A stretch of DNA of 64,000 nt. Source: a virus. The position numbers and the translations under genes are program-made. Under the pieces are notes generated by a model. It worked only from the letters and a program-made list of their open reading frames with translations, was not told where the DNA came from and ran no database searches. The stretch's first letter is position 1. Each line of letters starts with the position of its first letter. Of the stretch, positions 8,768-48,468 are shown piece after piece. The DNA lies in IMG/VR virus record IMGVR_UViG_3300035670_000045, positions 1 to 64,000 of that record; one strand, 5' to 3'.

Positions 8768-8796
8768 TGGCCCTCCGGTTCTCTTATGACCTGCGG

Positions 8797-8802
8797 TAGG
8801 AT
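8797..8802 (+). promoter_or_regulatory. Putative -10 element GG-TAGGAT for the rightward head operon
   Basis: Same GGTAGGAT as at 59128-59135; lies in a divergent intergenic region and is followed by a GAGGT RBS. Confidence 0.45.
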
Positions 8803-8821
8803 GTGTTTGCGAGGTACCTGC

Positions 8822-35696: not shown

Positions 35697-36415
35697 TGAG
35701 CACCAAGTACCGCGACCTGCTGACACAGTACAACGAGTCCGCGACCGGCGCCGTGCACGACTTTCTTGCCGCGCGCAAGGAGGCATCTGCACGCAAGGTC
35801 ATGCAGAACTTCGCTACGGGCGTCGGGAACGCGACCATGGCGGGGGTTGGTGGGGCCATCGCCTCCGCCGCCGTCACAGGCGTGGCGATGGGGGCTCAGA
35901 AGGCCTACCAGGCGCTGACCCGGGAACGCGACATGCGCAACATGCTCGAGGCCAACGCGGAGTTGGCGGAGCACCACCAGAGCAACCCCAAGGGGTTCAA
36001 CCTGGCGTACAACTCGCTTCGCGCGATGAACCCGGAGTTCGCGGCCGACCCCGTCATCGCCGGCGCCTACATGCGGAAAGCCATGGAGAATCCCGGTGTC
36101 GCAGGCGGCATCTTCGGCGAGCTCGGGCTGCAGTCGAAGCGCACCCCCAACCGGTTCATGGACTCGATCCAGTCCAACGCGGCGTCCTCGTTCCGGATGC
36201 CCCGGGAAGAGGGACCCATGGAGGGCCGGAGGGGCCCTGTCCCGATCGACTCGAACGCCGAGCTGACACCCACGACCCTCACCGGGGAGGGGTACTCCCA
36301 CGGGAAGGGACGCGTGCACGAGGGCCGCATGAAGGTGAAGGTCCACAAAGACCCGATGGGCCCCGGCGTGGGCGGTGGCGAGCGGTGGAACACCCACAAG
36401 CCGCGAGACTGGTGA
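35696..36415 (+). CDS. Putative virion protein with a leader ending in KEAS and a Gly/Ala hydrophobic segment
   Basis: TGATG coupling; HDFLAARKEAS followed by a GxxxG tract. Confidence 0.65.
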   Translation: MSTKYRDLLTQYNESATGAVHDFLAARKEASARKVMQNFATGVGNATMAGVGGAIASAAVTGVAMGAQKAYQALTRERDMRNMLEANAELAEHHQSNPKGFNLAYNSLRAMNPEFAADPVIAGAYMRKAMENPGVAGGIFGELGLQSKRTPNRFMDSIQSNAASSFRMPREEGPMEGRRGPVPIDSNAELTPTTLTGEGYSHGKGRVHEGRMKVKVHKDPMGPGVGGGERWNTHKPRDW

Positions 36416-36430
36416 GAGGCTCGGGCCGCG

Positions 36431-38038
36431 ATGATCGTCAAAGAGTGCCTGTTCTCCGGTTCCACGGAGCTCGGTCCCGCGGTCCTGCCTCTATTCCAAC
36501 GAGGTACGGACGCCTTCTTCGAGAAGACGGCGTCCTTCATCGTCCCCGAGGTCGTGAACTTCATCGCAGGTGTGCGCCCGGAGAACGGGGCGATCTACAC
36601 CTTGGTGAATGCGCTCGGTGCGGGTGAGTACTTTGGCAGCAACGCCAACGCCGACTACTTCGACGAGTCTGGCCTCATCCATCGACCCGACCAGTGGGCG
36701 GGCGACCCCGCACTGGATGCGGAGGTTGGCCGAAAGTGGGGGTACGGGTTCCCCACGTTCTATGGCGCCCACGTGTTCCCTCACCACCGGAATCAGGACC
36801 CCGCCAAGTCCATTGGGGACGTGGTGTTCGCCGCTTGGAACCCTCGGATGCGGCGGGTGGAGCTCGTCACGAAGACCCACGAGGTGCGTTGCCGCGCCCA
36901 GGGTGTCACCTCGATCTGGGACAAGCTCAAGGCCCTCGAGTACGCGGACGTGTCGATGGGTGCGCGCGTACCCGGCGACCTGTGCTCCTGTCACGCAGAC
37001 TGGTCTGCGTTCGAGGCTGCCAAGAAGACGTACAACCCGCGGGTGCACGCCAACGAGGGTGTGGCCGTTGCCGAGTACCACAAGCGGTCCCCCATCCGCG
37101 GATGGGCCAAGACCCGCAAAGAGTACTGCGAGAACATGCTTCGGAAGCCCAACGCCATCCTGCCCGACGGCAAGAAGGTGTTCGTGCACAACCACTACCC
37201 GAAGTTCTTCGACATCTCGTACGTGTTCGTGGGCGCGGACCGCACCGCCAAAGCGATGATCCACATTCGCACGGTGGCTACGATCTCCACGCCCTCCGAG
37301 AGCTACAAGCTCGGGTGGGATTCCACGTTCGGTGGAGAGGAGAAGACCGCGGCCCGCAAGCACGGAGAGATCCAGAAGTCGGACATCCCAAGCCACTTCG
37401 TGCCGTCCGCGATCCGCCACACCTTCCGTGGGGAGCCCGACCTTCCCCGGGAAGTACTCCACGAGATTGCGCGTCACCCCGAGCGGCCGGCCCTTGCGAC
37501 CGTGTCAGGCTTGGGTATTGTGCTCCGTCCACGTGAGTTCCAGCGCATCACTCTCCATCGTGCAGGCAACGGTCAACTGGCCGACGCACTCGACGCCAAC
37601 GGGATGGTGTTCTCGAGAGGAGAGGCGGAGTCCCCCTGGGAGACCACTCCGGAGTTCATCCCGGAGCTTCTTCGGGTGCTTGCCCCGTTCTTGGCGCGAC
37701 GTTCCGCGTTGCACGAGCCGCTCACTTCCCGAGTCCTCATCGCGTACTCCGGAGGGGATTCCGTGCCCTACAAATCGGGTGTGGCCTCTTCCTATCTTTT
37801 CGAGCCGCTCAGTAAGATGGGCTCCAGGTACTCGGAGTACCGACAGTCCATCATGCAACAACTCCCGCACGCCCCCCACCTGCTCTCCGAAGTCGATGGC
37901 GGGCCTGTTGCGCAAAAGTTGGGGTCTGCCCCTCTCCACGAGCTGTTCTCGCCGCTGACTGTCGAGTATCTTCAGTCAGCATTCTGGGAAGAGGCACCCC
38001 TCGACCCCACCACCACTCGGGCGAAAGCCGGCGCGTAG
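36431..38038 (+). CDS. Prohead maturation protease (HK97/assemblin-like serine protease, putative)
   Basis: NANADYF, FPHHRN..IGDV, VSMG (candidate catalytic Ser) and FFDISYVFVGAD; lies upstream of scaffold and capsid genes; the domain is flanked by EKTAS and EKTAA. Confidence 0.7.
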   Translation: MIVKECLFSGSTELGPAVLPLFQRGTDAFFEKTASFIVPEVVNFIAGVRPENGAIYTLVNALGAGEYFGSNANADYFDESGLIHRPDQWAGDPALDAEVGRKWGYGFPTFYGAHVFPHHRNQDPAKSIGDVVFAAWNPRMRRVELVTKTHEVRCRAQGVTSIWDKLKALEYADVSMGARVPGDLCSCHADWSAFEAAKKTYNPRVHANEGVAVAEYHKRSPIRGWAKTRKEYCENMLRKPNAILPDGKKVFVHNHYPKFFDISYVFVGADRTAKAMIHIRTVATISTPSESYKLGWDSTFGGEEKTAARKHGEIQKSDIPSHFVPSAIRHTFRGEPDLPREVLHEIARHPERPALATVSGLGIVLRPREFQRITLHRAGNGQLADALDANGMVFSRGEAESPWETTPEFIPELLRVLAPFLARRSALHEPLTSRVLIAYSGGDSVPYKSGVASSYLFEPLSKMGSRYSEYRQSIMQQLPHAPHLLSEVDGGPVAQKLGSAPLHELFSPLTVEYLQSAFWEEAPLDPTTTRAKAGA

Positions 38039-38089
38039 GAGAGGGACACCTCCCCGAAGACCGCGCGGAAACTTGAAAGAAGAAAAACC

Positions 38090-38755
38090 ATGTCCCTCTC
38101 CGATCTCTTCGCTGCGTACGCCACCGAAACCCAGGACGAGGCCGCGCTCGAGAAGCAGGCCCAAGAAGAGCTCTACGTGAAGATCGCGTCGGAGTACTGC
38201 GCCGCCAACGGCGTCGACTTCGACAACCTCTCGCAGGAGCAACACAGCATGCTCTGGGACGCCATCTTCACCTCCGAGAAGTCCGCCGAGGAAGAGGAGA
38301 AGAAGGACGACGACAAGAAGGAAGAGTCGAAGTCCGAGAAGAAGGACGACGACGAGGAGAAGGCGAAGGAGGAGTTCGCCAAGGAGAAGCAGGCGGCCGA
38401 CTCGTACGCCATGTCGGAGGCCCTCGGCCGTTCGATGGCCCGCGCCTTCGACGAGGAGCTCCAGAAGATCGCTTCGGAGCGTGCGCAGGAGGAGGCCAAG
38501 AAGGAGGCCTCGGCTCGCCAGTCGACGCTTCGCCGCGTCGAGGCCCCGATCTCGGCGATCGACAAGGTCGCGGCCCAGGCGGCGGTCAAGATCGCGTACG
38601 ACCAGGGCGGGTACGACCCGGAGGACACCGAGCGTCGCCTCGTCGCGCTCCTGACCCTCGGCGCGCCGGAGACGGCGAAGCTCGCCTCGGGCACCTACGA
38701 GGAGCGCGTCCAGGCGCGCGCGCTCGAGCTCCTCGTGGCGGCCGGCTACCGCTGA
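38090..38755 (+). CDS. Scaffold/core-like acidic helical protein
   Basis: 9 K-x-A motifs in 221 aa; E/K/D tract; strongly biased codons; follows the protease. Confidence 0.65.
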   Translation: MSLSDLFAAYATETQDEAALEKQAQEELYVKIASEYCAANGVDFDNLSQEQHSMLWDAIFTSEKSAEEEEKKDDDKKEESKSEKKDDDEEKAKEEFAKEKQAADSYAMSEALGRSMARAFDEELQKIASERAQEEAKKEASARQSTLRRVEAPISAIDKVAAQAAVKIAYDQGGYDPEDTERRLVALLTLGAPETAKLASGTYEERVQARALELLVAAGYR

Positions 38756-38764
38756 CCCACCCGG

Positions 38765-38790
38765 AGGGGGCCTTCGGGCCCCCTTTCCCT
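38765..38790 (+). terminator. Hairpin AGGGGGCC-TTCG-GGCCCCCT plus pyrimidine tract
   Basis: UUCG tetraloop stem 10 nt after the stop codon. Confidence 0.65.
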
Positions 38791-38843
38791 CCCTCTCCAT
38801 CCCAGTTTCTTTCGGCGGGGTTCCGCCACCATCCTCCGAGGCC

Positions 38844-40262
38844 ATGATGAACTACCAAGCCCGCCGTTTGACCCAGGACCTCGTCGCCGCGGCCCTCGAG
38901 TCGTCCGCTCACCACGAGAAGCTCGCCGCGGAGTCCCGACGTCTGGCGGGGACCGAGAAAGTGGCGTCGGAGTCGCAGCCGATGGACGACTCGTACTCGA
39001 CCGAGCTCGTCGAAAAGCTCGCCTCCGCCGTGGAAGAGATCCTCCCCGAGGTCGAGCTCAAAGAAGCCGGAGCCCTCGAGAGCATCGGTGACACGGTGGC
39101 CCGCGGCGCGACGCGCGCGGCCGACTTCGCCTCGAAGCACAACACCGGTGCGGGCGCGGCCATCGCGCGGAACCTTCAGAAGGTGCAGGGCGTCGACAAC
39201 CGTACCCTCGGCAAAGCGGCGCTCGGCGTTGCCGGTGTCGGAGCTGCGGGCGTGGGTGCCGGTATGGCCGCCCACAAGGCGATGGGCAGCAACGAGAAGA
39301 AGGCCGCGGAAGACGACGCCAAGGTGGCTGGCCTGGCGGACAAGCTCAAGGGCGTCGCCGACAAGGTGCGTGGCGCGGCTGGCAAGGCTGGCGACAAGGC
39401 AAAAGAGGTTGCCGGCAAGGCCAAGGACAAAGCCGTGAAGGCGAAGGATACGGCGAAGGAGGTCGTGAACACCGCGTTGGATGGGCCGGATGCTAGCTGG
39501 CTCCGTCGCAAGGGTTTCCCCGCACGCGGGGATGCTTCCGCGACTGGCCATCGGCACGGCCTTGTGACTGGCCTCGGTGTTGGGTTTGGGTCCAGTGCCG
39601 CGGCTGCGAACGTCGCCAAAAAGTCCAAAAAGTCCAAGAAGGAAGCCAGCGTCGATCCCGAGAAGCTCGCTGGCGCGGTCGAGAAGATCAAGTCGGGCCT
39701 CAAGCGTGGCAAGGAGCTCCTCTCCGGATCGAAGCTCGACGCGCTGAAGGACAAGGCGTCCAAGATCCAGGACCCGGTGCGAAAGATCGAACACGAGGTG
39801 ACTCGCCTTTCGCCGGAGCACAAGAAGGTCGTCGGTGCGCGCGCGGCGGCTGGCGTCGGTGCGGCAGCCACGACGGCGGGTGCGGGGCTCGCGGCTCACA
39901 AGGCCATGAGCAACTCGAAGGAAGCGGGGCTCGCCACCTTCCTCTCCAGCAAGCGCGCGTCGCTCGTGGAGATGGCGGAGGGCAAGTCCTTCCAGCAGTC
40001 GCCTCCGAGCAGCAACCCGCAGCCCACGGTGACGGATGTCGACCAGAAGCCGACGAACGCTTCGGGCAACCACCTCCCGACCAACGAGAGTGCGGTGCAG
40101 TTCTCGAACCGCAAGACTCTTCCCGAACGACGTGCGTCGATGCGAAACTACTTCTCGCAGCCGATGAACGACCAACACGACGTCCCCGAGTTCTCGCACA
40201 AGACGGCGTCCGCGTCGGACGAGGCTCGCGCGCTTCTCAGCCAACTCGCGGAAGGTAAGTGA
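38844..40262 (+). CDS. Modular K-x-A-delimited virion polyprotein-like protein
   Basis: At least 11 K-x-A motifs; three Gly/Ala hydrophobic tracts; duplicated AG[ML]AAHKAM. Confidence 0.65.
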   Translation: MMNYQARRLTQDLVAAALESSAHHEKLAAESRRLAGTEKVASESQPMDDSYSTELVEKLASAVEEILPEVELKEAGALESIGDTVARGATRAADFASKHNTGAGAAIARNLQKVQGVDNRTLGKAALGVAGVGAAGVGAGMAAHKAMGSNEKKAAEDDAKVAGLADKLKGVADKVRGAAGKAGDKAKEVAGKAKDKAVKAKDTAKEVVNTALDGPDASWLRRKGFPARGDASATGHRHGLVTGLGVGFGSSAAAANVAKKSKKSKKEASVDPEKLAGAVEKIKSGLKRGKELLSGSKLDALKDKASKIQDPVRKIEHEVTRLSPEHKKVVGARAAAGVGAAATTAGAGLAAHKAMSNSKEAGLATFLSSKRASLVEMAEGKSFQQSPPSSNPQPTVTDVDQKPTNASGNHLPTNESAVQFSNRKTLPERRASMRNYFSQPMNDQHDVPEFSHKTASASDEARALLSQLAEGK

Positions 40263-40624
40263 TCATGCCCACGAAAATCAGCCAGGCTGCCGTCCAGGCC
40301 ACGCTGCGGGAAGTCCCCGTGGCCCTTCGCAAGGTCGCGTCCGAACGCGACTTCTGGAAGGAGAAGGCGCTGGCCATGATGGCGGAAGACGAGGTCCAGA
40401 AGGTGGCCTCGGAGATCCGTGACCGCGGGCTCGACAGCGGGCGTGACCCGGACGAGCTCTTGGAGGACCTCCGCAAGGCGGCCTCCCAGAACAAGCTCGC
40501 GACGATCCGAGAGGGTCTGTCGTGGGTGGGCCCGAACATGGGCGAGAAGATCGCGTCCCTGGGTGACCGCCCCGGGAAGGGAACGACCACGATGGAGCGA
40601 CTCGAAGCGGCCATCTTGGAGTGA
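40259..40624 (+). CDS. Small scaffold-like protein
   Basis: 5 K-x-A motifs in 121 aa; upstream of the decoration and capsid genes. Confidence 0.65.
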   Translation: MIMPTKISQAAVQATLREVPVALRKVASERDFWKEKALAMMAEDEVQKVASEIRDRGLDSGRDPDELLEDLRKAASQNKLATIREGLSWVGPNMGEKIASLGDRPGKGTTTMERLEAAILE

Positions 40625-40683
40625 TGCAGCACCTGTAGGCGTAGCGTCGCTCCGCCGATTCAAAATCTCGAAGGAGTTTCTCA

Positions 40684-41193
40684 ATGTCCACCACCGCTCA
40701 GCGCCCGAACTTCGACATCAAGTCGGACCTCTTCATGGTTCAGACCCGCGACTACCCCCTCGCGGACACCACCCTTCTCGACCCGCGCCTTTCGACGTGC
40801 CTCGTCGACGGGGAGTGGGTGCGGCTCACCGACGCGCGACTTCTCGTCCGCGCCACCAACGTCGCGTCGGCGGGTGACCCGGCGACGGTGAAGTCGTTCC
40901 CGCTCTGGAACGAGCCCGGGCGTTCGGACACGCAGGCGATTCGCAAGATGACGGGCATCCGCTTCGGCTCGTGGGAGGCGGACACCCGCATCTTCGACGC
41001 GGCGGCGGTCGTCGGTGGTGGTGCGGCCATCACGGAGATGGACCAGCCCCTCAAGGTCGCGACCATCACCCTCGGTGGACGCAACTACTCGGGTCTCGTC
41101 GGCGCTGGCGCGTCGGACATCATCGTCGCCCGCGTCAGCAAGCTCCCGGCGAACAACGGGGGCCGTCTCGGAATCGTGGCCGTCGCACCCTGA
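40684..41193 (+). CDS. Putative capsid decoration/cement protein
   Basis: AAGGAG RBS; beta-rich 169 aa directly before the MCP; biased codons. Confidence 0.55.
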   Translation: MSTTAQRPNFDIKSDLFMVQTRDYPLADTTLLDPRLSTCLVDGEWVRLTDARLLVRATNVASAGDPATVKSFPLWNEPGRSDTQAIRKMTGIRFGSWEADTRIFDAAAVVGGGAAITEMDQPLKVATITLGGRNYSGLVGAGASDIIVARVSKLPANNGGRLGIVAVAP

Positions 41194-41240
41194 TCGGTTC
41201 GCGGCGTCGTAGCAAATCGATCAGCAAGGAGAATCCAATC

Positions 41241-42371
41241 ATGACTGCCATCCCCGTCACTTCCCTCAACCAGGCCTTCATCCAGAAGGTCGCGACCCAA
41301 GAGGGACGCGAGAAGATCGCCGCCACGACGGACGACTTCATCCGCGACCGTCTCCGCGAAAGCGCGTTCGTCCGCCAGATCCTCGACGTCGAGGACGTCA
41401 AGCCGGGCGATCCCGGGGTGCAGGTCAGCCTCACCCAGGACACGATCTACAAGGTCGTGGAGGTCGAGCCCCGGACCCGCGCGCTCGCGATGAGCTTCCG
41501 CGGTCAGCCGGAGATCAACTACATCTCGGCGCCCCGTCTCGCCGTCGGCTTCTTCAAGATCTCTTCGGAGAACATCCAGAAGAGCGAGGAGGAGCTCATG
41601 GCCTACCGGTACCCGATCACCAAGATCTTCGAGGACCAGAGCCTCAAGGATCTCCAGGACATCGAGGACCGTGAGTTCTGCATCCACCAGGAAGCGGCCG
41701 TCCAGGCCTACCAGGCGGAAGCGAACGGCGGGTCGGTCGTCGCGCTCACCTCCACGGCGGTCCGCGCGAACTCGGTGGTCCAGTACTCCGTCTTCAAGTC
41801 GGACATGGCCCTCGCCCAGACGGTCGACAACGCGGTCGCGATGCCCATCCAGCGCCAGGACATCCCGAAGCTGAAGCGCGCGATCCTCAGCCGCCGCCTC
41901 TCGTACGAGTGCATGCTCATCACGGAGTCGGACCTCACGTCGACCGACACCTGGACCATCCAGGACCTCGGCCTCCAGCTCACCTCGGACACCGCGATCG
42001 AGGGCTGGAAGCAGAACAAGCTCCTCGGCGTCCGCCTCGTCCGCACCATCAAGACGGACATCCTGCGCAACGGCAACGTGTACCTGTACACGGCGCCGAA
42101 GTTCTTCGGGAAGATGTTCATCCTGAACCAGCCCAAGTTCTGGATCGACAAGAAGTACAACATCATCTCGTTCCAGGTCTGGGAGAACATCGGCATGGTG
42201 CTCGCGAACATCGCCAGCATCGTGAAGCTCGAGACGTACTCGGGCGACGCCACGACGGTGAACACCAACGGCATCCTCGCCAGCGTCACGCCGGTGCCCG
42301 AGGCGTCCATCGGCGCGCTCAACAACCGGGTCGCGCAGGGGCTCAACTTCCCCTCGATCCAGCTGTACTGA
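41241..42371 (+). CDS. Major capsid protein (HK97 fold, putative)
   Basis: Start ATG 41241 (AAGGAG); 376 aa; strong C/G third-position bias; FIRDRLRESAFVRQIL and LQDIEDREF helix; followed by a strong terminator. Confidence 0.8.
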   Translation: MTAIPVTSLNQAFIQKVATQEGREKIAATTDDFIRDRLRESAFVRQILDVEDVKPGDPGVQVSLTQDTIYKVVEVEPRTRALAMSFRGQPEINYISAPRLAVGFFKISSENIQKSEEELMAYRYPITKIFEDQSLKDLQDIEDREFCIHQEAAVQAYQAEANGGSVVALTSTAVRANSVVQYSVFKSDMALAQTVDNAVAMPIQRQDIPKLKRAILSRRLSYECMLITESDLTSTDTWTIQDLGLQLTSDTAIEGWKQNKLLGVRLVRTIKTDILRNGNVYLYTAPKFFGKMFILNQPKFWIDKKYNIISFQVWENIGMVLANIASIVKLETYSGDATTVNTNGILASVTPVPEASIGALNNRVAQGLNFPSIQLY

Positions 42372-42392
42372 CCCGCCCTTCGGGTCCAACGC

Positions 42393-42434
42393 ACGGCGGG
42401 CGAGCTACTTCGGTAGTTCGCCCGTTCGTTTTCT
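42393..42434 (+). terminator. Rho-independent terminator after the MCP gene
   Basis: CGGGCGAGCTAC-TTCG-GTAGTTCGCCCG followed by TTCGTTTTCT. Confidence 0.85.
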
Positions 42435-42462
42435 CCCACCCATTTCCTGGTAGAGTACCCAC

Positions 42463-43110
42463 ATGACCGACGAGCTCACGACCCAAGAGTCCCCCGCAGT
42501 TCAACCCGACCCGCTCGACCAAGCGACGGTGACCGTCGAGAACGTGTCCCACCTCCCCTACGGAGGCCGCACGCGGGAGACCAACTTCCACTTCCCGCCG
42601 ACGCAGGTGCGCTGCGTCCCTGGGCGATCGGTCGCCGTCCCGTTCTCGGCGTTCCGCACCCATCATGCCCTCTTCGCCAACTTGGTGCGGGAGGGCTACG
42701 TGCGCCTCTCGGGGAGCTCGGACGTCCTGACCGCGGTCCAAGGGCTGCTCGCGCAGGACAACGCCGAGGCGGCGGTTCCCGTGGTGGTGGACCCGCCCGA
42801 GCCCAACTTCCCGATGGATTCCGCTGCACGGGACATGACCCCCACCTGGGACAAGGCGACGCTGCAGGACCCCGCGCAGCCCGAGCCTCCTGCGGACTTC
42901 ACCATGCCCGTGGCGCCGCCCCCGGCTTCGCATGACGCGGAAGACACCGCGGCGGAGGACACTGCGCCCGAGACGCCTCCTGCGCCTCCGGCAACGGAAG
43001 GTGACGACGAGTCGTTGGTCGGGATGTTCCCGGACAAGGGCGTGGACGCCGCCCCGGCGGAGGACACTGCGCCCGAGACGCCCCTGGCGAAGAAGAAGGG
43101 CAAGAAATGA
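42463..43110 (+). CDS. Hypothetical protein with an acidic Pro-rich tail, probably leaderless
   Basis: TGG-TAGAGT-N6-ATG upstream; ends KKKGKK. Confidence 0.7.
   Translation: MTDELTTQESPAVQPDPLDQATVTVENVSHLPYGGRTRETNFHFPPTQVRCVPGRSVAVPFSAFRTHHALFANLVREGYVRLSGSSDVLTAVQGLLAQDNAEAAVPVVVDPPEPNFPMDSAARDMTPTWDKATLQDPAQPEPPADFTMPVAPPPASHDAEDTAAEDTAPETPPAPPATEGDDESLVGMFPDKGVDAAPAEDTAPETPLAKKKGKK
42950..43082 (+). repeat. 28-bp direct repeat, 2 copies (42950-42977 and 43055-43082)
   Basis: CGGCGGAGGACACTGCGCCCGAGACGCC, encoding AEDTAPETP. Confidence 0.85.
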
Positions 43111-43355
43111 GCAAGCAGATCCGACTTTTCTGCCTCACGGACGTGGCAAGCCCCACGTCGACGGAGCGCGGGTTTGTCGGGATTCCCGTGACGGTCGGGC
43201 GCTACATCCTGGCGCCCGGCCAAGAGCTGGTGGTCCCGGACGACGAGCTCCTTCAGCGGCAACTACCTGACCTCGTGGCGGCGGATGCCGTGGCGGTCGG
43301 GAGCCAGCCGGCCTGGTATCGTGTGGCGAAGGAACGCAAGAAGGCGAAGGGCTGA
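43107..43355 (+). CDS. Hypothetical protein
   Basis: ATGA-coupled 82-aa ORF. Confidence 0.7.
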   Translation: MSKQIRLFCLTDVASPTSTERGFVGIPVTVGRYILAPGQELVVPDDELLQRQLPDLVAADAVAVGSQPAWYRVAKERKKAKG

Positions 43356-43357
43356 CC

Positions 43358-43867
43358 ATGGCGGACGGGCTCGAGGGTATTCCCGGCATCACCCCCACCA
43401 CACGGGCGTTCGTTGCATTGGTACGGGAGTTCACTCGGGACTACCCCGAGCTCAACCGCCTGGTCGCCGGCACGGAGTCCAGCAACCGACAGATTCTGTG
43501 GGCGATCTTGGACGCCCTGTCCGACTTCAACGGAACCCCTCCCCTCATCCGGAAGGTGTCCCTCGAGGACCTGCTGGCACAGGGGCACCAGTACCTTCTG
43601 CTGCGAATGGTCACGTGCTCGCTGATCGAAAGTGTCGGGCTACTCCAGACCCGAAACCACATCGACTACAGCAACGGCGGATTCTCCGTGGGGGTCAACA
43701 ACAAGACGCCCATGCTCCAGAGCTGGCTGCAGCTCTTTCGTCAGATCACCGAGCAGCGAAAGGTCGCTGTGAAAGTGTCCATGAACATCAGCCAGCTTCT
43801 CGACGCCTCTCACGCGGGCGTGTACACCGAGCTCTGGGCTGTGAACCAAAGCTACTTCCTCTTCTGA
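43358..43867 (+). CDS. Putative head-tail adaptor/neck protein
   Basis: VREFTRDYPELNRL...LSDFN..PP...DYSNGGFSV helical pattern; located after the MCP. Confidence 0.55.
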   Translation: MADGLEGIPGITPTTRAFVALVREFTRDYPELNRLVAGTESSNRQILWAILDALSDFNGTPPLIRKVSLEDLLAQGHQYLLLRMVTCSLIESVGLLQTRNHIDYSNGGFSVGVNNKTPMLQSWLQLFRQITEQRKVAVKVSMNISQLLDASHAGVYTELWAVNQSYFLF

Positions 43868-43877
43868 GGGCCACACC

Positions 43878-44348
43878 ATGCCGAAGATCTCCATCAAGAA
43901 GTTTGCCGCCCAAGAGGACGCCGAGACGTTCCTGAACGGCGGCGTGGTCATCGCGTGCCCCTCGTTGGGCGCGCTCGTGTACGGGCTCGTCGGGAAGACG
44001 CTCATCTTCACCCAACCCTCGAGTGTGACCGTGACCTTCACCAGCTCCGAGCCCAACGGCGCGATGACCATGAAGCAGATCTTGGAGCAGATCGCGGCAG
44101 CCATCCCGGCACTGGCGCTGTCCATGCGGGGGGCCAATATCCACCTCGTCGAGAAGAACCCGACCAACGGGGTCACCGTGTCCCACACGTCGACCGCTGC
44201 GGCGTTCTTCGGGCTCAGCACCGCTACGGCTGCGGACGGTACGATCTTTCCGCCGGCGACTGCCACCCCCTCCGCCCCGTGCCTGCTCCAAATCCTGGGC
44301 GACGGTAGCGGTGCGGTTCAATGCGTGATCTACGAGGTGACCCCGTGA
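43878..44348 (+). CDS. Hypothetical virion protein
   Basis: GAGG RBS; resembles one sheath-insertion-type repeat. Confidence 0.65.
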   Translation: MPKISIKKFAAQEDAETFLNGGVVIACPSLGALVYGLVGKTLIFTQPSSVTVTFTSSEPNGAMTMKQILEQIAAAIPALALSMRGANIHLVEKNPTNGVTVSHTSTAAAFFGLSTATAADGTIFPPATATPSAPCLLQILGDGSGAVQCVIYEVTP

Positions 44349-47300
44349 GCTCGAACATCCCTTTCATCGACATGGCCGAGTACTTCCGTGGGCTCAAGAC
44401 GGCGGAGGACGCGAAAGCACCTGCGCCCGCTGCAGCTCCGCCTCCCGAGCAGGTCCTGCCGATGTACGCCCAGCTCGCGAACCTCAAGACCTCGCTGGCG
44501 ATGGCCTACCGCGTCTACTCCGAGTCGCTCCGCGGGGAAGCCAACACGGCTCTCGGCGAGCACTTCAAAGAGCACTCCGAGCACCACCTCGAGGACGCCG
44601 ACTGGTTCATTCGCCGGTGCTCGGTCCTCGGAGGCCCGACCGACTTCGGCGAGATCCAGCTCCCGCCGCCCGCCACGGACACCCAAACCATCGTGCGAAC
44701 GCTGGCCTCGTTGGAGGAGCAGAGCATCGCTGCGCTCAACGAGCTCCGCCCGCTGGTGGAGGGCAGCCCCTCGCAGTACGAGCTCGAGGGCATGCTGTCG
44801 CGGGACCAGCACCACCTCGACGACATGTGGCAGCACATCCCGGACACCCCGGCGACGAGCGCGGTGCAACCCGCTGGCCCCCCTCCGCCCCCCGCCCCCG
44901 CGGAGTCCGTCCCGAAGCAAGCAGGACTCGATAGCCCGATGGGCATCGACAAGATCGACCCTACACTCGCAAAGACCCTACACGCCCTACTGAACCCGCT
45001 TCCAGGCTCCACCGCTGGCGCATTTTTCCATGGGGACACCCGAAAGTCCAACATGCGGGATGCGACGATCCAGGGCGCTGCACGCGGCGCGATGGCGGGT
45101 GCGGCCTATGGCGTACTCACCTCCATGTTCAAGCCCAATGAGGTTGCGGCTCGGGCGGCTAACGCTGCGGTGGGTGGCGCCATCAGTGGTGCGATGGTCG
45201 GACGCACCGAAGCTTACGACCACAAGCAGCGGGCAAAGTTGAAGAAGCAGGCCAATACCGTGGGTGCAGTTGCTGCCACCGGGAAGCACGCCCCCGTGCA
45301 GGCCCCTCCGGCGCTGCAGGGTGCGGCTGCGGGTCAGCATCCGGTGAAGATGGCGTGGACCAAGACCGCTGCGCGTACGTACGACCTCGGGGAAGGCACC
45401 GCGCGCGACGGTAACGCCTTCGCTGTGAAGTCGGAGCCGTCCCAGCTCGAGCTCGCCATGGCTCTCCAGGGCAAGATGGATGGGGACTTCCACGCGGCCA
45501 AAGGCCACGGCAAGCACCTCACGATGTTCTCCCCCGCTGCGCTCGGCGGAGGTGGGGCGATCGAGCTCGGTGCGCACAACCACGGCACGCTCATCCCCGC
45601 GGGGGGCGCCACTCGGGGGCACCTCCTCAAGCAGTATGGGAAGGGCCCAAGCATCTCCCCCGCGATGATGGACAGCATCGAGCGGAACGACGGGGATGTG
45701 CGGGAGCAGCTCGCCATGAACGGCGTGAAGGTCGGTCGGAACCTCCGACTCGAAGCCGCTTTGGGGCACATCAAGAAGGCTGCGTTCCGCACCGACGAAG
45801 AGAACGTCGAGACGGGGCGTCAGCGCGCCATCGCGAACCTCTCCTCGGGGTTCACCTCCGACAGGTACACCTCCGGTGAACGCCACGGTCAACTCCTCGG
45901 CAAGCTCACCGGTGCGGGTGCGGGCGCACTGGCGGGAGCCATGGCCGCGCGCAAGGAGTCGATCCCCGTCCGCCTGGCCGCGGGTCTCGGGGCAGGGGCG
46001 CTCGGTGGGTCGCTCGGCGGAGCTCTCGGGAAGGTCGTGGGGCAGGACCGTGACGCCACGAACTTCTACCGGGAGCACTCGAAAGAGGCGGCATGCCTCG
46101 GTGACGTGGCGGAAGAGATGCGCCCGGCGGGCCGCACCCTGGCCGACGCACAGAAGCTCACCCAGGGTCTGGGGGAGTCGTTCGAGCTCGGTGGTCGAAA
46201 CCCCAAGGATGCCAAGAGCTCTTGGAATCACCCGAAGCGACACCCCAGCGTGAAGGAGGCATCGCTCAAGGAGAAGGCAGTCGAATTCGGGAAGAAAGTG
46301 ATCGGCGGAAAGAGTCGGGAAGCGCTACTCGAAGCTTCGGGCCGAGCTGCTGCCAAATCGGATAGGCATTTCGACAAGGCTGGGCTCCTGAGGCGTGGAA
46401 TGGCCCGGTCCAACGACACCTCCAGCAAACGATACGTGATTGCCCGGGAAGGGCACGCGGGCCACTTTCAGAAAGGCAGAATCGAAGGTCTGGAGGCCAG
46501 GGCACTAAAGGGGGACGCGGACCGCCTGGTCGGCGACAGAATTGAAGGGGGTGCAAAGGTGCTCGGTGTCCTTGGCTCCACGGCTGGTGCTGCAGGCCTA
46601 CTAGTGCACCAGACAAAAAATGGGGGCCAAGGGGGGGCCAAGGAAGCCTCCGACCCGTTCACCCGGATGATGCAGGGGTGGGCCAAGACGGCGAACGCCC
46701 TCGTGCACGAGCCTGACCCTGCCGTCGCGGAGTACATCGCCCGTGAAGAGCAGGCGCGGATGCAGCAAGAGGCCCAGGAGTCCGAGTACCTTCGGAGCCA
46801 GCTGCAGGCGGCGCACGCGGAGCTCGAGTCGAAGGACCAGGAAGTCCAGCAGCTGCAGCAGAGCGTGGGCCAGCTCCAGGAGCAGACCCAGATGCAGCAG
46901 GACACGATCGCCACCGCCCAAGCCACCACGGAGGGGGCGATGGGGTCGGTCGTACAGAAGTCAAACGAGCTCATGAAGCAGATGCAGCTCACTTCGAACC
47001 TGTCCCAGGCGCACCAGATGATGAAGGAGCAGCTGCAGTCCCTGGCCCAGATGCCGTCGCCCCCGCTGACGGGGGGAGAGTCCGCCGCGACCGACCAGGC
47101 CGCGTCGGACGAGCTCGCCATGCAAGACCAGGCCGCGGCCGAGCAGGAAGCCGCGGCGGCGGGTCAACAGCCCGGCGTCCCGGCAGAAGGCGGCTCACCC
47201 CCACCGGGCGGGCAGGGCGAGGCGGGTCCCCCGAAGGTGGCCGGTCTGCCCCACGGCCTCCTGGGCGGTGGCCTTGGCGCCCTGGCCGGGGCGGGGTCGG

Positions 47301-47569
47301 TGTTGTTGGCCAGCAAGGAGCGGGCGAAGATCGACGAGCTCATCGGCAAGATGGAGCAGTCGGACAGCAAGGGCTTCTCCCACGCCATGGCCCTGGCCCA
47401 CCTCAAGCATCAGTCGAACCTCGCCCAAATCGCCGCAGACCACCCGGGCAGGTCGGCGCTGGTGGCTGGTGTTCTCGGCGGACAAGCCGGCATGGGCGTC
47501 GAGTCCAACATCCGGCACCTGCTGAAGGGCGAACCCTACCATCCGCTGCACAACGCGGAGCTCAAGTGA
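44345..47569 (+). CDS. Large modular protein: ferritin-like domain, glycine-zipper modules and coiled coil, delimited by K-x-A
   Basis: GTG 44345 overlaps the upstream TGA; four-helix ferritin pattern at about 44462-44836; about 11 K-x-A sites; Gln-rich coiled coil at about 46730-47050. Confidence 0.7.
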   Translation: MSSNIPFIDMAEYFRGLKTAEDAKAPAPAAAPPPEQVLPMYAQLANLKTSLAMAYRVYSESLRGEANTALGEHFKEHSEHHLEDADWFIRRCSVLGGPTDFGEIQLPPPATDTQTIVRTLASLEEQSIAALNELRPLVEGSPSQYELEGMLSRDQHHLDDMWQHIPDTPATSAVQPAGPPPPPAPAESVPKQAGLDSPMGIDKIDPTLAKTLHALLNPLPGSTAGAFFHGDTRKSNMRDATIQGAARGAMAGAAYGVLTSMFKPNEVAARAANAAVGGAISGAMVGRTEAYDHKQRAKLKKQANTVGAVAATGKHAPVQAPPALQGAAAGQHPVKMAWTKTAARTYDLGEGTARDGNAFAVKSEPSQLELAMALQGKMDGDFHAAKGHGKHLTMFSPAALGGGGAIELGAHNHGTLIPAGGATRGHLLKQYGKGPSISPAMMDSIERNDGDVREQLAMNGVKVGRNLRLEAALGHIKKAAFRTDEENVETGRQRAIANLSSGFTSDRYTSGERHGQLLGKLTGAGAGALAGAMAARKESIPVRLAAGLGAGALGGSLGGALGKVVGQDRDATNFYREHSKEAACLGDVAEEMRPAGRTLADAQKLTQGLGESFELGGRNPKDAKSSWNHPKRHPSVKEASLKEKAVEFGKKVIGGKSREALLEASGRAAAKSDRHFDKAGLLRRGMARSNDTSSKRYVIAREGHAGHFQKGRIEGLEARALKGDADRLVGDRIEGGAKVLGVLGSTAGAAGLLVHQTKNGGQGGAKEASDPFTRMMQGWAKTANALVHEPDPAVAEYIAREEQARMQQEAQESEYLRSQLQAAHAELESKDQEVQQLQQSVGQLQEQTQMQQDTIATAQATTEGAMGSVVQKSNELMKQMQLTSNLSQAHQMMKEQLQSLAQMPSPPLTGGESAATDQAASDELAMQDQAAAEQEAAAAGQQPGVPAEGGSPPPGGQGEAGPPKVAGLPHGLLGGGLGALAGAGSVLLASKERAKIDELIGKMEQSDSKGFSHAMALAHLKHQSNLAQIAADHPGRSALVAGVLGGQAGMGVESNIRHLLKGEPYHPLHNAELK

Positions 47570-48468
47570 TTCAGGTCCAGCGACTCCGAGTTCGCTCGCT
47601 CGACGTGAGGACGTACACCTTGGCCTGGGAGATCCAGGACACCACCGAGGATGTGTACGACTACACGTTCGTGATCGAGCGCTCGGAGTCGCAGGCCGGC
47701 CCCTGGGACGAGCTCAGCCATCCGTTCCGCGACCGGTACCGATTTCGGGACACCACGCTTCCGTTGGCGTCGCCAACCCGCACGATGTTCTACCGTATCC
47801 GCGTGACCCACACCCCAAGTGGGGAGGTCACGTACTCCGATGTGGTGGACGCCCAGCCGGAAGCGGACCTCATCACGAAGGAAGTCCGTCGGCACATGGG
47901 GCTCCTCATCCGGGAGTTCACAGGCCGTCGTGCTTGGCTGCTACCCACCCGGACTTTCGGGCAGAAGTGCACGAACTGCCGCAACACCGTGCTGGCTTCG
48001 AAGCGCACGGGTCGGTGCCTCGACTGCTACGACACGGGGTTCTTGCGCGGGTTTCTCGCCCCCATCGAGCTCTGGATTCAAGTCGATCCGACGAGCCCGC
48101 TCACGAAGCAGGCGTCGGGGTTCGGCGACATGTCCGCGGCCGTGACTACGGCACGGTGTGTGGACGTAGACGGGATCAAGCCGCGCGACGTCCTTGTCGA
48201 AGCGGAGAACCGTCGCTGGCGTGTGCTCGCGGTGAACAACACGGAGCATGGCCGGTCGCCGATTCACCTCGAGCTCCAGCTCCGTGAGATTCCGAAGTCC
48301 GACGTGGAGTACGAGTACGAGCTCAAACTGGACACGGCGTTGGAAGACTTGGCGCTGAGCCCGGCCCGGAACTTCACGAACCCGCAGAACCTGACGAACT
48401 TTCAGGACGAAGAGATCCCGTCTATCCTGTCGCTGTACCCCTACGTGACCCGACCTCCGAGGACCTGA
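47566..48468 (+). CDS. Putative neck/head-closure protein (FN3-like N-terminus, Zn finger)
   Basis: LAWEI...IERSES..GPW..L beta-sandwich pattern; CTNC...CLDCYDTG; DVLVE..RRWRV. Confidence 0.55.
   Translation: MIQVQRLRVRSLDVRTYTLAWEIQDTTEDVYDYTFVIERSESQAGPWDELSHPFRDRYRFRDTTLPLASPTRTMFYRIRVTHTPSGEVTYSDVVDAQPEADLITKEVRRHMGLLIREFTGRRAWLLPTRTFGQKCTNCRNTVLASKRTGRCLDCYDTGFLRGFLAPIELWIQVDPTSPLTKQASGFGDMSAAVTTARCVDVDGIKPRDVLVEAENRRWRVLAVNNTEHGRSPIHLELQLREIPKSDVEYEYELKLDTALEDLALSPARNFTNPQNLTNFQDEEIPSILSLYPYVTRPPRT

What the first reader, a model, noticed from the sequence alone, without database searches (positions are those of the whole stretch)
44345..47569. Cassette-like polyprotein: modules bounded by K-x-A sites with distinct codon usage
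Seen: the 1074-aa protein reads as a string of units separated by KTA, KQA, KQA, KMA/KTA, KAA, KEA, KEAS, KEAS, KTA and KVA. The units are a ferritin-like bundle, several ~100-130-aa glycine-zipper modules and a Gln-rich coiled coil. Two modules (44915-45253, KQA...KQA; 46253-46651, KEAS...KEAS) are flanked by the same motif at both ends and show visibly more A/T-ending codons (CTA, AAA, AAT, TTT) than their neighbours. Inference: these are exchangeable payload cassettes inserted at cleavage sites and released as separate peptides inside the capsid, in effect a programmable phage polyprotein delivery array.
Basis: partly seen in the sequence, partly recalled or inferred. Interest (0 to 1): 0.8.

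Follow-up and report, generated by a model that had tools for sequence, protein, structure and literature searches.

The report
Phage head polyprotein with swappable cassettes
An uncultured large phage encodes a long head-associated protein made of units separated by a short lysine-x-alanine motif, and close relatives differ by whole units lost, gained or swapped exactly at that motif, which suggests a cut-and-release capsid protein that evolves by cassette exchange.

Summary
Gene 44345-47569 encodes a 1074-aa protein. It has an N-terminal peptide ending in KTA, a ferritin-like four-helix bundle, Gly-zipper modules, a Gln-rich coiled coil and a C-terminal helical domain.

- One near-identical relative lacks exactly cassette 1 (KQA..KQA).
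- Another lacks exactly cassette 2 (KEAS..KEAS).
- A third keeps a 99-100% identical backbone, carries a 37%-identical cassette 2, and has a new 108-aa insert between KMA and KTA.
- Contigs from two other studies show the same two deletions as DNA joints.

K-x-A, mostly followed by Ser, is enriched only in head-module proteins. It ends the N-terminal peptide of the capsid protein in 23 of 23 distinct relatives. It is invariant in a neighbouring protein whose predicted fold best matches the T4 gp21 capsid protease.

Best reading: a head-internal polyprotein that a prohead protease cuts at K-x-A, with exchangeable cassettes between the cuts. Cleavage, retention in the capsid and delivery to the host are inferred, not shown. 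"Programmable delivery array" goes beyond the evidence. The scan has noted this only on this genome.

The parts
44345..47569 (+). Polyprotein gene, 1074 aa plus stop. An alternative ATG start lies at 44321.
44345..44404 (+). N-terminal peptide (residues 1-20, predicted helix 7-19) ending in K18-T-A. Candidate capsid-targeting propeptide.
   Evidence: K-x-A sits exactly at this column in 98 of 113 aligned relatives. pLDDT is 73-80.
44405..44923 (+). Ferritin-like four-helix bundle (fold at residues 34-164) plus a Pro-rich linker ending in KQA.
   Evidence: Pfam PF00210. pLDDT 92-98. Foldseek hits to Dps-like protein, bacterioferritin and 2qqy.
44924..45253 (+). Cassette 1 (residues 194-303, ends in KQA), GC3 0.71. 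Absent from P0002/L003 and from a contig of run X4.
45254..45370 (+). Short linker unit (residues 304-342) holding KMA335 and KTA340. This slot carries a 108-aa insert in P0004 and a 219-aa insert in P0016.
45371..45781 (+). Unit of residues 343-479, shared only with the nearer relatives. It ends in KKAA. P0005 and P0006 carry different cassettes in this slot.
45782..46090 (+). Conserved helical hairpin with a double Gly-zipper (residues 480-582, ETGRQRA...), ending in KEA.
   Evidence: phmmer hits 75 of 157 family proteins. K-x-A lies within 8 residues of its ends in 55 of 88 and 75 of 92 relatives. pLDDT 60-88.
46091..46261 (+). Unit of residues 583-639, found only in the closest relatives, ending in KEA.
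46262..46648 (+). Cassette 2 (residues 640-768, ends in KEA, next residue S), GC3 0.64. It is absent from P0003 and from a 29.5-kb contig of run X6. P0004 has a 37%-identical version. A homologue sits in another slot in P0005.
46649..47242 (+). Short unit ending in KTA783, then a Gln-rich coiled coil and a Pro-rich tail ending in KVA966.
47243..47566 (+). Conserved C-terminal domain: a Gly-zipper followed by three helices.
   Evidence: phmmer hits 68 of 157 proteins. pLDDT 69-91.
36431..38038 (+). Candidate prohead protease, 535 aa. N-domain 16-267, disordered linker holding the invariant K316-T-A, C-terminal helical domain. K32-x-A34, H118, H119 and S175 are invariant.
41238..42371 (+). Major capsid protein read from its probable ATG start. 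The N-terminal peptide holds KVA and KIA.
   Evidence: phrog_2522. 23 of 23 distinct relatives keep K-x-A before the conserved GGxYIRDRLRE.
38090..40624 (+). Three K-x-A-rich, scaffold-like proteins: 221 aa with 9 sites, 472 aa with 13 sites, 121 aa with 5 sites.

Best explanation
The gene encodes a head-internal polyprotein of an uncultured myovirus. The record is 126.7 kb and about 68% complete; related contigs reach about 200 kb.

A conserved backbone carries two or more slots: N-terminal peptide, ferritin-like bundle, Gly-zipper hairpin, coiled coil and C-terminal domain. Every unit ends in K-x-A. I propose this sequence of events:
1. The N-terminal peptide brings the protein into the prohead.
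2. The phage's gp21/assemblin-fold prohead protease (36431-38038) cuts after the Ala of K-x-A, preferably before Ser.
3. About ten fragments of roughly 0.5 to 20 kDa are released. The larger ones stay in the capsid with the DNA.

Any in-frame segment that brings its own K-x-A is tolerated, so cassettes are gained, lost, replaced and moved between slots by recombination. This makes the gene the hypervariable element of an otherwise conserved structural module.

Shown: the unit architecture, cassette exchange at the motif, the foreign codon usage, restriction of the motif to head proteins, and the protease-like fold.

Inferred: the cleavage itself, the cut position, retention in the capsid, ejection, and what the fragments do. 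My guess for the Gly-zipper units is membrane-active or ejection-channel peptides.
For: (1) Indels at the motif. In five clean events among close relatives, 10 of 10 boundaries fall at K-x-A:
- P0001/P0002: 110 aa, KQA|KQA.
- P0001/P0003: 129 aa, KEAS|KEAS.
- P0002/P0004: 108 aa, KMA|..|KTA.
- P0005/P0006: replacement between GEK[VT]A and GEK[RH]A.
- P0016/P0007: 219 aa, KLA|..KIA|.
Only 10.6% of positions lie within 3 residues of a K-x-A. In a distant lineage (L008 vs L017), a replaced block is again bounded by KKA/KAKA and KMA/KLA.

(2) DNA level.
- L003 matches the window at 94.5-97.9% identity with a single 324-nt hole at cassette 1.
- The repeated motif shares only AAGCA. Its KQA and KEAS codons differ at synonymous sites, so it is kept as a peptide and not as a DNA repeat.
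- Contigs from two other studies join 44913->45244 (run X4) and 46261->46649 (run X6, a 29.5-kb contig).

(3) Mosaicism. The P0004 backbone is 99-100% identical, but its cassette 2 is 37% identical. A cassette-2 homologue sits in a different slot in P0005.

(4) Foreign codon usage in both cassettes.

(5) Family. A profile search gave 716 cluster representatives at E<=1e-3 and 310 at E<=1e-30. The 150 best listed are 274-1475 aa long. Insert-free forms are about 616-624 aa.

(6) Motif as a protease site.
- K-x-A is enriched in five proteins in or near the head module: 14 vs 3.0, 13 vs 3.5, 8 vs 2.4, 9 vs 3.4 and 5 vs 1.1 expected. It is at or below expectation in the candidate tail genes.
- It lies in the first 35 residues of 10 of 15 head-region proteins against 8 of 78 others, Fisher p 1e-5.
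- The next residue is Ser at 30 of 82 sites, a 5.2-fold enrichment.
- 23 of 23 distinct capsid-protein N-termini keep it.

(7) Protease. The model of 36431-38038 (pLDDT 81.5) best matches T4 gp21: 5jbl, Z 9.0, rmsd 3.1 A, 142 of 165 residues aligned. Herpesvirus proteases follow with VZV at Z 7.2 and HCMV at Z 5.3. K32-x-A34, K316, H118, H119 and S175 are invariant in 57 of 57 sequences.

(8) Position. In the 22 of 34 related loci that reach that far, the gene lies after the capsid-protein gene and before the p47566 homologue. The sheath gene follows in the 19 of those loci that extend to it.
Against: - No protein-level data exist. Cleavage, cut position, packaging and ejection were not tested.
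- In this protein the K-x-A count is not above chance (146 of 2000 shuffles reach it). Three sites (KHA314, KKA477, KDA621) mark no known boundary.
- In the more distant pair P0007/P0008, three large indels have K-x-A at only one end. One indel (159 vs 17 aa) has K-T-S on the right and nothing on the left.
- The divergent block of P0004's cassette 2 starts about 20 residues inside the cassette.
- The protease call rests on a predicted structure. Foldseek gives E of only 0.27. Pfam S77 and S78 find nothing in the genome. I did not superpose the catalytic residues.
- The cassettes have pLDDT below 50 and almost no Pfam matches, so their function is a guess.
- The portal and the tape measure protein were not identified.
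Confidence: 0.6

Rival explanations
1. It is a scaffold or core protein only. It is cut at K-x-A during maturation and the pieces leave the capsid or have no later role. The cassettes are tolerated filler that tunes core size, not delivered cargo.
For: The same motif is dense in acidic, coiled-coil, scaffold-like neighbours (9 sites in 221 aa, 5 in 121 aa). The backbone has a long coiled coil. The cassettes match no enzyme or effector family. BFVD entries named 'Prohead protease' carry a ferritin-like domain, which links that fold to head assembly.
Against: Sites are about 100 residues apart, so most fragments would be 5-20 kDa. From recall, T4 scaffold peptides that escape are smaller than this. 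Rapid cassette turnover with foreign codon usage looks more like conflict-driven variation than filler. Neither point is decisive.
Confidence: 0.2
2. K-x-A is not cleaved. It is a conserved linker or helix-capping motif at domain junctions where in-frame recombination is tolerated, and the protein works as one intact multidomain chain.
For: No cleavage data exist. The motif count in this protein is within chance. Domain junctions are in general where indels survive.
Against: The motif is restricted to head-module proteins. It ends short N-terminal peptides, including the capsid protein's in 23 of 23 distinct relatives. It has a Ser preference after it. It occurs in the disordered linker and the N-terminus of a gp21-fold protein. 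This pattern is what prohead-protease substrates show in SPN3US (PMC10052503, passages read).
Confidence: 0.1
3. It is the tape measure protein, with variable inserts.
For: It is long and helical, with a coiled coil and Gly-rich hydrophobic stretches. No other tape measure protein was found by Pfam or PHROGs among the large ORFs tested. One weak BFVD hit is to a tape-measure-domain protein (TM 0.09).
Against: - It lies upstream of the sheath gene, not after the sheath, tube and chaperone genes.
- It shares the N-terminal K-x-A peptide with head proteins, while candidate tail proteins lack the motif.
- It starts with a compact ferritin-like bundle.
- Phages 97-99% identical differ by 110-129 aa, which for a tape measure would change tail length.
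- There is no PHROG or Pfam tape-measure match.
Confidence: 0.07

Closest known systems
T4 internal proteins (IPI-III, Alt) with a capsid targeting sequence, cut by the gp21 prohead protease (recalled; T4 reviews PMC3012670 and PMC9026906 seen only in a search listing)
   Same: A short N-terminal peptide ends at the protease motif. The substrates are head-internal. The gene content is hypervariable. The protease has the same fold (best structural match 5jbl).
   Different: In T4 each internal protein is a separate small gene and the motif is L/I-x-E (recalled). Here many units are strung in one ORF, the motif is K-x-A(S), and units are exchanged at the motif.
Ejection and inner-body proteins of the giant phages SPN3US and phiKZ, cut by gp245/gp175 (PMC10052503, passages read)
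   Same: Many head proteins carry N-terminal propeptides. Several motif copies occur per substrate. There is a Ser preference after the cut. The protease cuts itself.
   Different: Their motif ends in Glu (A-x-E). Their long propeptides are degraded rather than forming a chain of retained units. The passages read do not describe cassette exchange at the sites. No sequence similarity was found.
Polyvalent proteins of phages and conjugative elements (Iyer et al. 2017, PMC5512222, passages read)
   Same: One long late-gene protein combines several units. It is proposed to be packaged and processed into pieces. The architecture is mosaic.
   Different: Those proteins combine recognisable enzymatic or anti-restriction domains and are thought to be processed by an embedded zincin-like peptidase. 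Here there is no such domain, and processing would be in trans at a fixed tripeptide. 'Ferritin' does not occur in that paper's main text. Its external supplementary lists were not seen.
Herpesvirus assemblin maturation sites (recalled consensus V/L/I-x-A then Ser; not found in the papers searched)
   Same: Ala lies before and Ser after the putative cut, with a specificity residue two places upstream. Herpesvirus proteases rank 2nd, 4th and 18th among the structural matches of the candidate protease.
   Different: The upstream residue is Lys, not an aliphatic one. The substrates are unrelated.
Encapsulin ferritin-like cargo, and phage 'Dps-like' proteins (encapsulin cargo recalled; phage Dps from PMC8008677, passages read)
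   Same: A ferritin-like four-helix bundle is associated with an HK97-fold shell. BFVD holds phage proteins named Dps of 290-680 aa, and 'prohead protease' entries with the same domain.
   Different: Encapsulin cargo uses a C-terminal targeting peptide (recalled). Phage Dps has been read as a cytoplasmic oxidative-stress enzyme. Here the domain heads a head-module polyprotein, and the usual ExxH ligand pattern is only partly present (by eye).

Membership tests
Ferritin-like superfamily (residues 34-164) | Profile match above the curated cut-off | tested here: met
   PF00210 scores 32.4 bits against a cut-off of 24.5. 41 of 48 long family members match Ferritin and 15 of 48 match Rubrerythrin.
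Ferritin-like superfamily (residues 34-164) | Four-helix bundle fold | tested here: met
   pLDDT 92-98. Foldseek hits 8w1e, bacterioferritins and 2qqy (target TM 0.86, rmsd 1.9 A), with E about 1e-4.
Ferritin-like superfamily (residues 34-164) | Complete di-iron ligand set (E, ExxH, E, ExxH) | tested here: inconclusive
   H77, E124, Q155, H157 and D159 are conserved. The helix-A Glu is not, and helix D reads QHHLD. Metal binding was not tested.
T4 gp21 / herpesvirus assemblin-fold prohead protease (36431-38038) | Fold | tested here: met
   VIA-align gives 5jbl_A at Z 9.0, rmsd 3.1 A, 142 of 165 residues, then 1vzv at Z 7.2 and 8j3s at Z 5.3. Foldseek also ranks 5jbl first, but at E 0.27.
T4 gp21 / herpesvirus assemblin-fold prohead protease (36431-38038) | Conserved catalytic His and Ser | tested here: inconclusive
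   H118, H119 and S175 (DVSMG) are invariant in 57 of 57 sequences. They were not superposed on the gp21 active site.
T4 gp21 / herpesvirus assemblin-fold prohead protease (36431-38038) | Sequence-profile membership (Pfam S77 or S78) | tested here: not met
   No match at E<=10 in the whole record. No Pfam or PHROG family matched the protein. If it is a protease, it belongs to an undescribed sequence family.
T4 gp21 / herpesvirus assemblin-fold prohead protease (36431-38038) | Gene lies in the head module upstream of the scaffold and capsid-protein genes | tested here: met
   The order protease, scaffold-like, MCP is kept in every related locus that reaches far enough upstream.
Prohead-protease substrate with a capsid-targeting propeptide (T4 IP type) | Short N-terminal peptide ending in the phage's protease motif | tested here: met
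   K18-T-A is present. K-x-A is exact at this column in 98 of 113 relatives. The same layout occurs in 10 of 15 head-region proteins.
Prohead-protease substrate with a capsid-targeting propeptide (T4 IP type) | Cleaved in the prohead and present in the virion | not testable with these tools
   This needs virion proteomics. No cultured relative was found among 50,697 phage records.
Polyvalent proteins (Iyer et al. 2017) | Several recognisable effector or enzyme domains in one chain | tested here: not met
   Only the Ferritin family is found in P0001. Among 48 members the extras are DUF5661 (2), LPP (2) and Gly-zipper_Omp (1).
Polyvalent proteins (Iyer et al. 2017) | Embedded zincin-like (MPTase) peptidase for self-processing | tested here: not met
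   No peptidase family is found in any of the 48 members scanned.
Tape measure protein | Gene lies after sheath, tube and chaperone genes; profile match to tape-measure families | tested here: not met
   The gene lies upstream of the sheath gene. There is no tape-measure family in Pfam or PHROGs.

The most novel reading that the evidence does not exclude
This is a natural plug-and-play capsid cargo system. One N-terminal address peptide loads the whole chain into the prohead. The prohead protease then frees every unit at K-x-A. Any peptide that arrives in frame with its own K-x-A therefore becomes a packaged, host-delivered product at once. The cassettes would be horizontally traded, membrane-active or anti-defence effectors, and the gene would be the arms-race locus of a widespread clade of large environmental phages. 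A ferritin-like cargo in an HK97-fold shell would also mirror encapsulins.
Probability: 0.3. Interest if true: 0.85.

Novelty: new variant of a known kind. Interest (0 to 1): 0.7.

Why it matters
Protease-processed internal head proteins are known from T4 and the phiKZ-like giants. There each cargo is its own gene, and how new cargo is acquired is unclear. Here the comparison of relatives shows the acquisition unit directly: a segment bounded by the putative cleavage tripeptide, which can be lost, gained, replaced or moved.

If cleavage is confirmed, three things follow:
- A new specificity, K-x-A then Ser, for the gp21/assemblin protease fold.
- A rule for what a phage will package.
- A large unannotated protein family, with 716 cluster representatives, in which to look for ejected effectors.

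It would also suggest a simple way to load foreign peptides into capsids of this phage group.

Tried and rejected
- No similarity to cultured phages. tblastn of the protein against 50,697 phage records found nothing. The capsid protein has only distant hits, to Salmonella phage Arash and three Vibrio phages at 26-30% identity. Arash's annotated neighbourhood shows no comparable gene. For its paper I saw only the search listing and the start of the abstract.
- PHROGs, the PDB sequence search and the ESM Atlas gave nothing for the polyprotein.
- A PDB sequence search of the 239-aa neighbour 35696-36415 gave nothing.
- Cassette 2 searched alone against longer proteins found only P0002 and a fragment, P0158. 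It missed the known homologues in P0004 and P0005, so this says little.
- A local tblastn of each unit against the whole record found no convincing paralogue of either cassette. The best hit for cassette 1 had E 0.016. The Gly-zipper hairpin hit a Gly-rich stretch at 10967-11131 at E 7e-5, which I read as composition.
- I looked for a tape measure protein among eleven large or sheath-proximal ORFs with PHROGs and Pfam and found none. This absence does not decide the tape-measure rival.
- Family-wide K-x-A enrichment is 1.23-fold (z 7.1). I do not count it as independent evidence, because much of it comes from homologous columns.
- The count of K-x-A in this protein alone is not significant.
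- Literature. Full-text searches listed no paper describing a phage head polyprotein with units exchanged at protease sites, or a K-x-A prohead-protease motif. I judged this from titles and abstract starts, plus passages of PMC5512222, PMC10052503, PMC8008677 and PMC7354516. Searches did not yield a citable statement of the herpesvirus Ala/Ser site, so that statement is recalled.
- Supplements were not opened. The polyvalent-protein paper's external files and the SPN3US supplementary tables could hold relevant lists.
- In the read-laying, runs X2 and X3 left some bins of the gene uncovered. I draw nothing from those holes. I also ignore two further 'joints' with 21-24 letters on the shorter side (44737->47025 and 44795->46124) as probably from other organisms.
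- Complex prediction was not used. No binding claim depends on it.

Full report
**What is there.** The window is the first 64 kb of a 126.7-kb virus record, estimated 68% complete, with about 64% G+C. The gene at 44345-47569 (+) gives a 1074-aa protein, P0001. The ORF can also start at ATG 44321. Its only family match is Pfam Ferritin at residues 46-141. PHROGs, the PDB sequence search and the ESM Atlas give nothing.

An AlphaFold2 model built on 120 family sequences is confident for these parts:
- an N-terminal helix (7-19);
- a four-helix bundle (34-164, pLDDT 92-98);
- a long helical hairpin (484-591);
- a coiled coil (792-902);
- three C-terminal helices (972-1060).

It is not confident (pLDDT below 50) for 189-483 and 592-768, the regions that hold the cassettes. 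The bundle matches Dps-like protein, bacterioferritin and other ferritin-like structures.

**Checking the observation.** As a bare count they are unremarkable: 14 against 9.4 +/- 2.8 expected, and 146 of 2000 shuffles reach 14. The codon claim is correct:
- GC3 is 0.709 in residues 194-303 and 0.636 in 640-768, against 0.86 in the rest of the gene (Fisher p 1.4e-4 and 9e-9).
- Only 4% and 0.9% of equal-sized windows in the phage's other genes are as low.
- CTA occurs 6 times in the cassettes and never in the remaining 835 codons.

A search of 5.8 billion clustered proteins returned 14 relatives. Three are nearly identical and differ by whole units:
- P0002 (972 aa) is 98-100% identical in every segment but lacks residues 191-300. 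Its sequence runs ...ESVP-KQA-NTVG.
- P0003 (945 aa) lacks 637-765 and runs ...PSV-KEAS-DPF.
- P0004 (1071 aa) has a 99-100% identical backbone. It lacks cassette 1, carries a 108-aa insert between KMA335 and KTA340, and its cassette 2 is only 37% identical.
- P0005 and P0006, 98.5% identical to each other over 469 residues, carry different cassettes between GEK[VT]A and GEK[RH]A. P0005's cassette is a homologue of cassette 2 sitting in another slot.
- In a further clade, P0016 has a 219-aa insert between KLA and KIA relative to P0007.

Across these five clean events, 10 of 10 boundaries are at K-x-A, while only 10.6% of positions lie within three residues of such a tripeptide.

Less clean cases also exist. 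In P0007 vs P0008 (40% identity), three large indels have the motif at one end only. One indel has K-T-S on the right and nothing on the left. The divergent core of P0004's cassette 2 starts about 20 residues inside the cassette. In a distant lineage from the viral contig collection, L008 and L017 share neighbouring genes at identical positions but have a replaced block bounded by KKA/KAKA and KMA/KLA.

**DNA level.** The contig behind P0002 (L003) aligns to window 36416-48183 at 94.5-97.9% identity, with one hole at about 44920-45243. The two copies of the motif share only AAGCA. The KQA codons (AAG CAA GCA vs AAG CAG GCC) and the KEAS codons differ at synonymous sites. The repeat is therefore conserved as a peptide and is not a target-site duplication or attachment site.

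Contigs were laid from public runs:
- Run X4 (lake water, a different study) has a contig joining 44913 to 45244. It skips 330 nt, which is cassette 1.
- Run X6 (activated sludge, a third study) has a 29.5-kb contig joining 46261 to 46649. It skips 387 nt, which is cassette 2.
- Runs X2 and X3 hold pieces of the full form.

These contigs may be the same lineages as P0002 and P0003. They do confirm the joints in DNA from other samples.

**The family.** A profile of 15 members found 716 cluster representatives (50% identity clusters) at E<=1e-3 and 310 at E<=1e-30. The 150 best listed are 274-1475 aa long.

The conserved parts are the N-terminal peptide plus ferritin-like domain, the Gly-zipper hairpin, the coiled coil and the C-terminal domain. 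The space between them varies from nothing (616-624-aa forms such as P0010, P0038 and P0039) to several hundred residues.

K-x-A is exact at the N-terminal column in 98 of 113 aligned relatives. It lies within 8 residues of the ends of the conserved hairpin in 55 of 88 and 75 of 92 relatives.

The inserts of 48 long members match almost no Pfam family: DUF5661 in 2, LPP in 2 and Gly-zipper_Omp in 1.

In 34 loci from the viral contig collection the gene order is: protease-like gene, scaffold-like gene, 169-aa gene, capsid protein, two small genes, polyprotein, 300-aa gene, 371-aa gene, sheath. I saw no rearrangement, and 22 of the 34 loci reach the 300-aa gene. The polyprotein is the length-variable member of a conserved structural module.

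**Why K-x-A is probably a protease site.** Across 117 predicted genes of the record, the motif is enriched only in five proteins in or near the head module:
- 8786-10135: 14 vs 3.0 expected;
- 28448-30478: 13 vs 3.5;
- 34482-35696: 8 vs 2.4;
- 38090-38755: 9 vs 3.4;
- 40259-40624: 5 vs 1.1.

The sheath and the other candidate tail genes are at or below expectation.

Further points:
- Ten of 15 head-region proteins have the motif within their first 35 residues, against 8 of 78 others (p 1e-5).
- The residue after the Ala is Ser at 30 of 82 sites (5.2-fold), Ala at 17 and Gly at 8.
- The capsid protein, read from its probable ATG at 41238, starts with a peptide holding KVA and KIA. All 23 distinct capsid N-termini from related loci keep K-[ILVF]-A just before the conserved GGxYIRDRLRE.

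This is the pattern that mass spectrometry established for substrates of the SPN3US protease. There the motif ends in Glu, there is also a Ser preference after the cut, and most substrates have N-terminal propeptides (PMC10052503, passages read).

**A candidate protease.** The 535-aa product of 36431-38038 has more than 345 relatives at 40-67% identity, some interrupted by inteins. In 57 aligned sequences, K32-x-A34, K316, H118, H119 and S175 (DVSMG) are invariant.

Its model (pLDDT 81.5) has three parts: an N-domain (16-267), a disordered linker (268-317) that holds the K316-T-A site, and a helical C-domain.

Aligned against 48,161 PDB representatives, the best match is the T4 capsid assembly protease gp21 (5jbl: Z 9.0, rmsd 3.1 A, 142 of 165 residues). 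The varicella-zoster (Z 7.2) and cytomegalovirus (Z 5.3) proteases follow, although unrelated MCE-domain proteins score Z 4-5 in between. Foldseek also ranks 5jbl first, but weakly (E 0.27). Pfam S77 and S78 find nothing.

I did not superpose the active sites. The assignment is a fold-level inference, consistent with self-cleavage at both invariant K-T-A sites. From memory, herpesvirus assemblins cut between Ala and Ser, with the specificity residue two places upstream. K-x-A|S would be the same geometry with Lys in that place. I could not find a citable passage for this.

**Mechanism proposed.**
- Shown: modular architecture; exchange, loss and relocation of units at K-x-A; foreign codon usage; motif confined to head proteins; a gp21-like fold next door.
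- Inferred: the N-terminal peptide targets the chain to the prohead. The protease cuts after the Ala. The roughly 5-20-kDa fragments stay inside. Because any in-frame segment with its own K-x-A is processed like the rest, recombination between co-infecting relatives can add or swap units without harming assembly.
- Speculative: the Gly-zipper units act on host membranes or form part of an ejection conduit, the ferritin-like unit binds metal or DNA, and the turnover reflects conflict with hosts.

**Rivals.**
- A pure scaffold whose pieces are discarded (0.2) fits the motif-dense neighbours and the lack of effector domains.
- An uncleaved multidomain protein (0.1) fits the lack of protein data, but not the distribution of the motif.
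- A tape measure protein (0.07) fits the length and helicity. It does not fit the position upstream of the sheath gene, the head-type N-terminal peptide, or 110-129-aa length changes between 97-99% identical phages. No other tape measure protein was found, however.

**Comparison and novelty.** The system works like the T4 internal proteins and the giant-phage ejection proteins, in that it appears to be processed in trans by a prohead protease. In concept it resembles the polyvalent proteins, with many units in one packaged chain. It fails the defining features of polyvalent proteins: there are no recognisable effector domains and no embedded peptidase (PMC5512222, passages read).

None of the six literature searches listed a description of unit exchange at protease sites or of a K-x-A specificity. 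That judgement rests on titles, abstract starts and the passages named above.

I rate it a new variant of a known kind, with interest 0.7. The comparative evidence is unusually clean and the family is large and unannotated, but function and cleavage remain untested. Earlier notes of this scan on the same genome pointed to the wider K-x-A pattern and to the 535-aa protein. I tested both here. The scan has no note of this on other DNA.

Noticed in passing
window 17607-26603 (+): A single 2998-aa ORF carries RNA polymerase beta motifs (Rpb2_6) followed by beta-prime motifs (Rpb1_2, Rpb1_5). A LAGLIDADG intein interrupts it at about residues 1856-2284.
   Followed up: partly
L006, L013, L019, L025, L037 (about 11.8-15.1 kb in each locus): In many relatives a second length-variable gene (268-862 aa) follows the polyprotein. 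It starts MLDxFL...K-x-A, has a conserved helical domain and an acidic stretch, then K-x-A-delimited Gly-zipper units. It is absent from this window, where the polyprotein abuts the 300-aa gene.
   Followed up: partly
window 8786-10135 and 28448-30478 (+): The two proteins with the strongest K-x-A enrichment (14 vs 3.0 and 13 vs 3.5 expected) lie outside the core head module and match no family. They may be further protease substrates, or the 676-aa one may be the portal.
   Followed up: no
relatives of window 36431-38038 (P0163, P0165, P0219): Some homologues of the candidate protease are about 900 aa long and carry intein/Hint and LAGLIDADG domains.
   Followed up: no
BFVD entries matched by model m39999399e612: Three uncultured-phage proteins named 'Prohead protease' (333-763 aa) and several named 'Dps' (290-680 aa) share the ferritin-like domain. 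The fold may therefore recur in phage head-assembly proteins.
   Followed up: no
window 40971-42371 (+): The longest capsid-protein ORF starts at a GTG 89 codons upstream of the conserved N-terminus and overlaps gene 40684-41193. The real start is probably ATG 41238.
   Followed up: partly
window 47566-48468 (+): The conserved 300-aa gene directly downstream has a CxxC...CxxC pattern and 37-55% identity across the clade. It matches no family and may be a neck or head-completion protein.
   Followed up: no
window 35696-36415 and 38844-40262 (+): Other head-module proteins also combine an N-terminal K-x-A peptide with Gly/Ala-rich zipper stretches similar to those in the polyprotein units.
   Followed up: no
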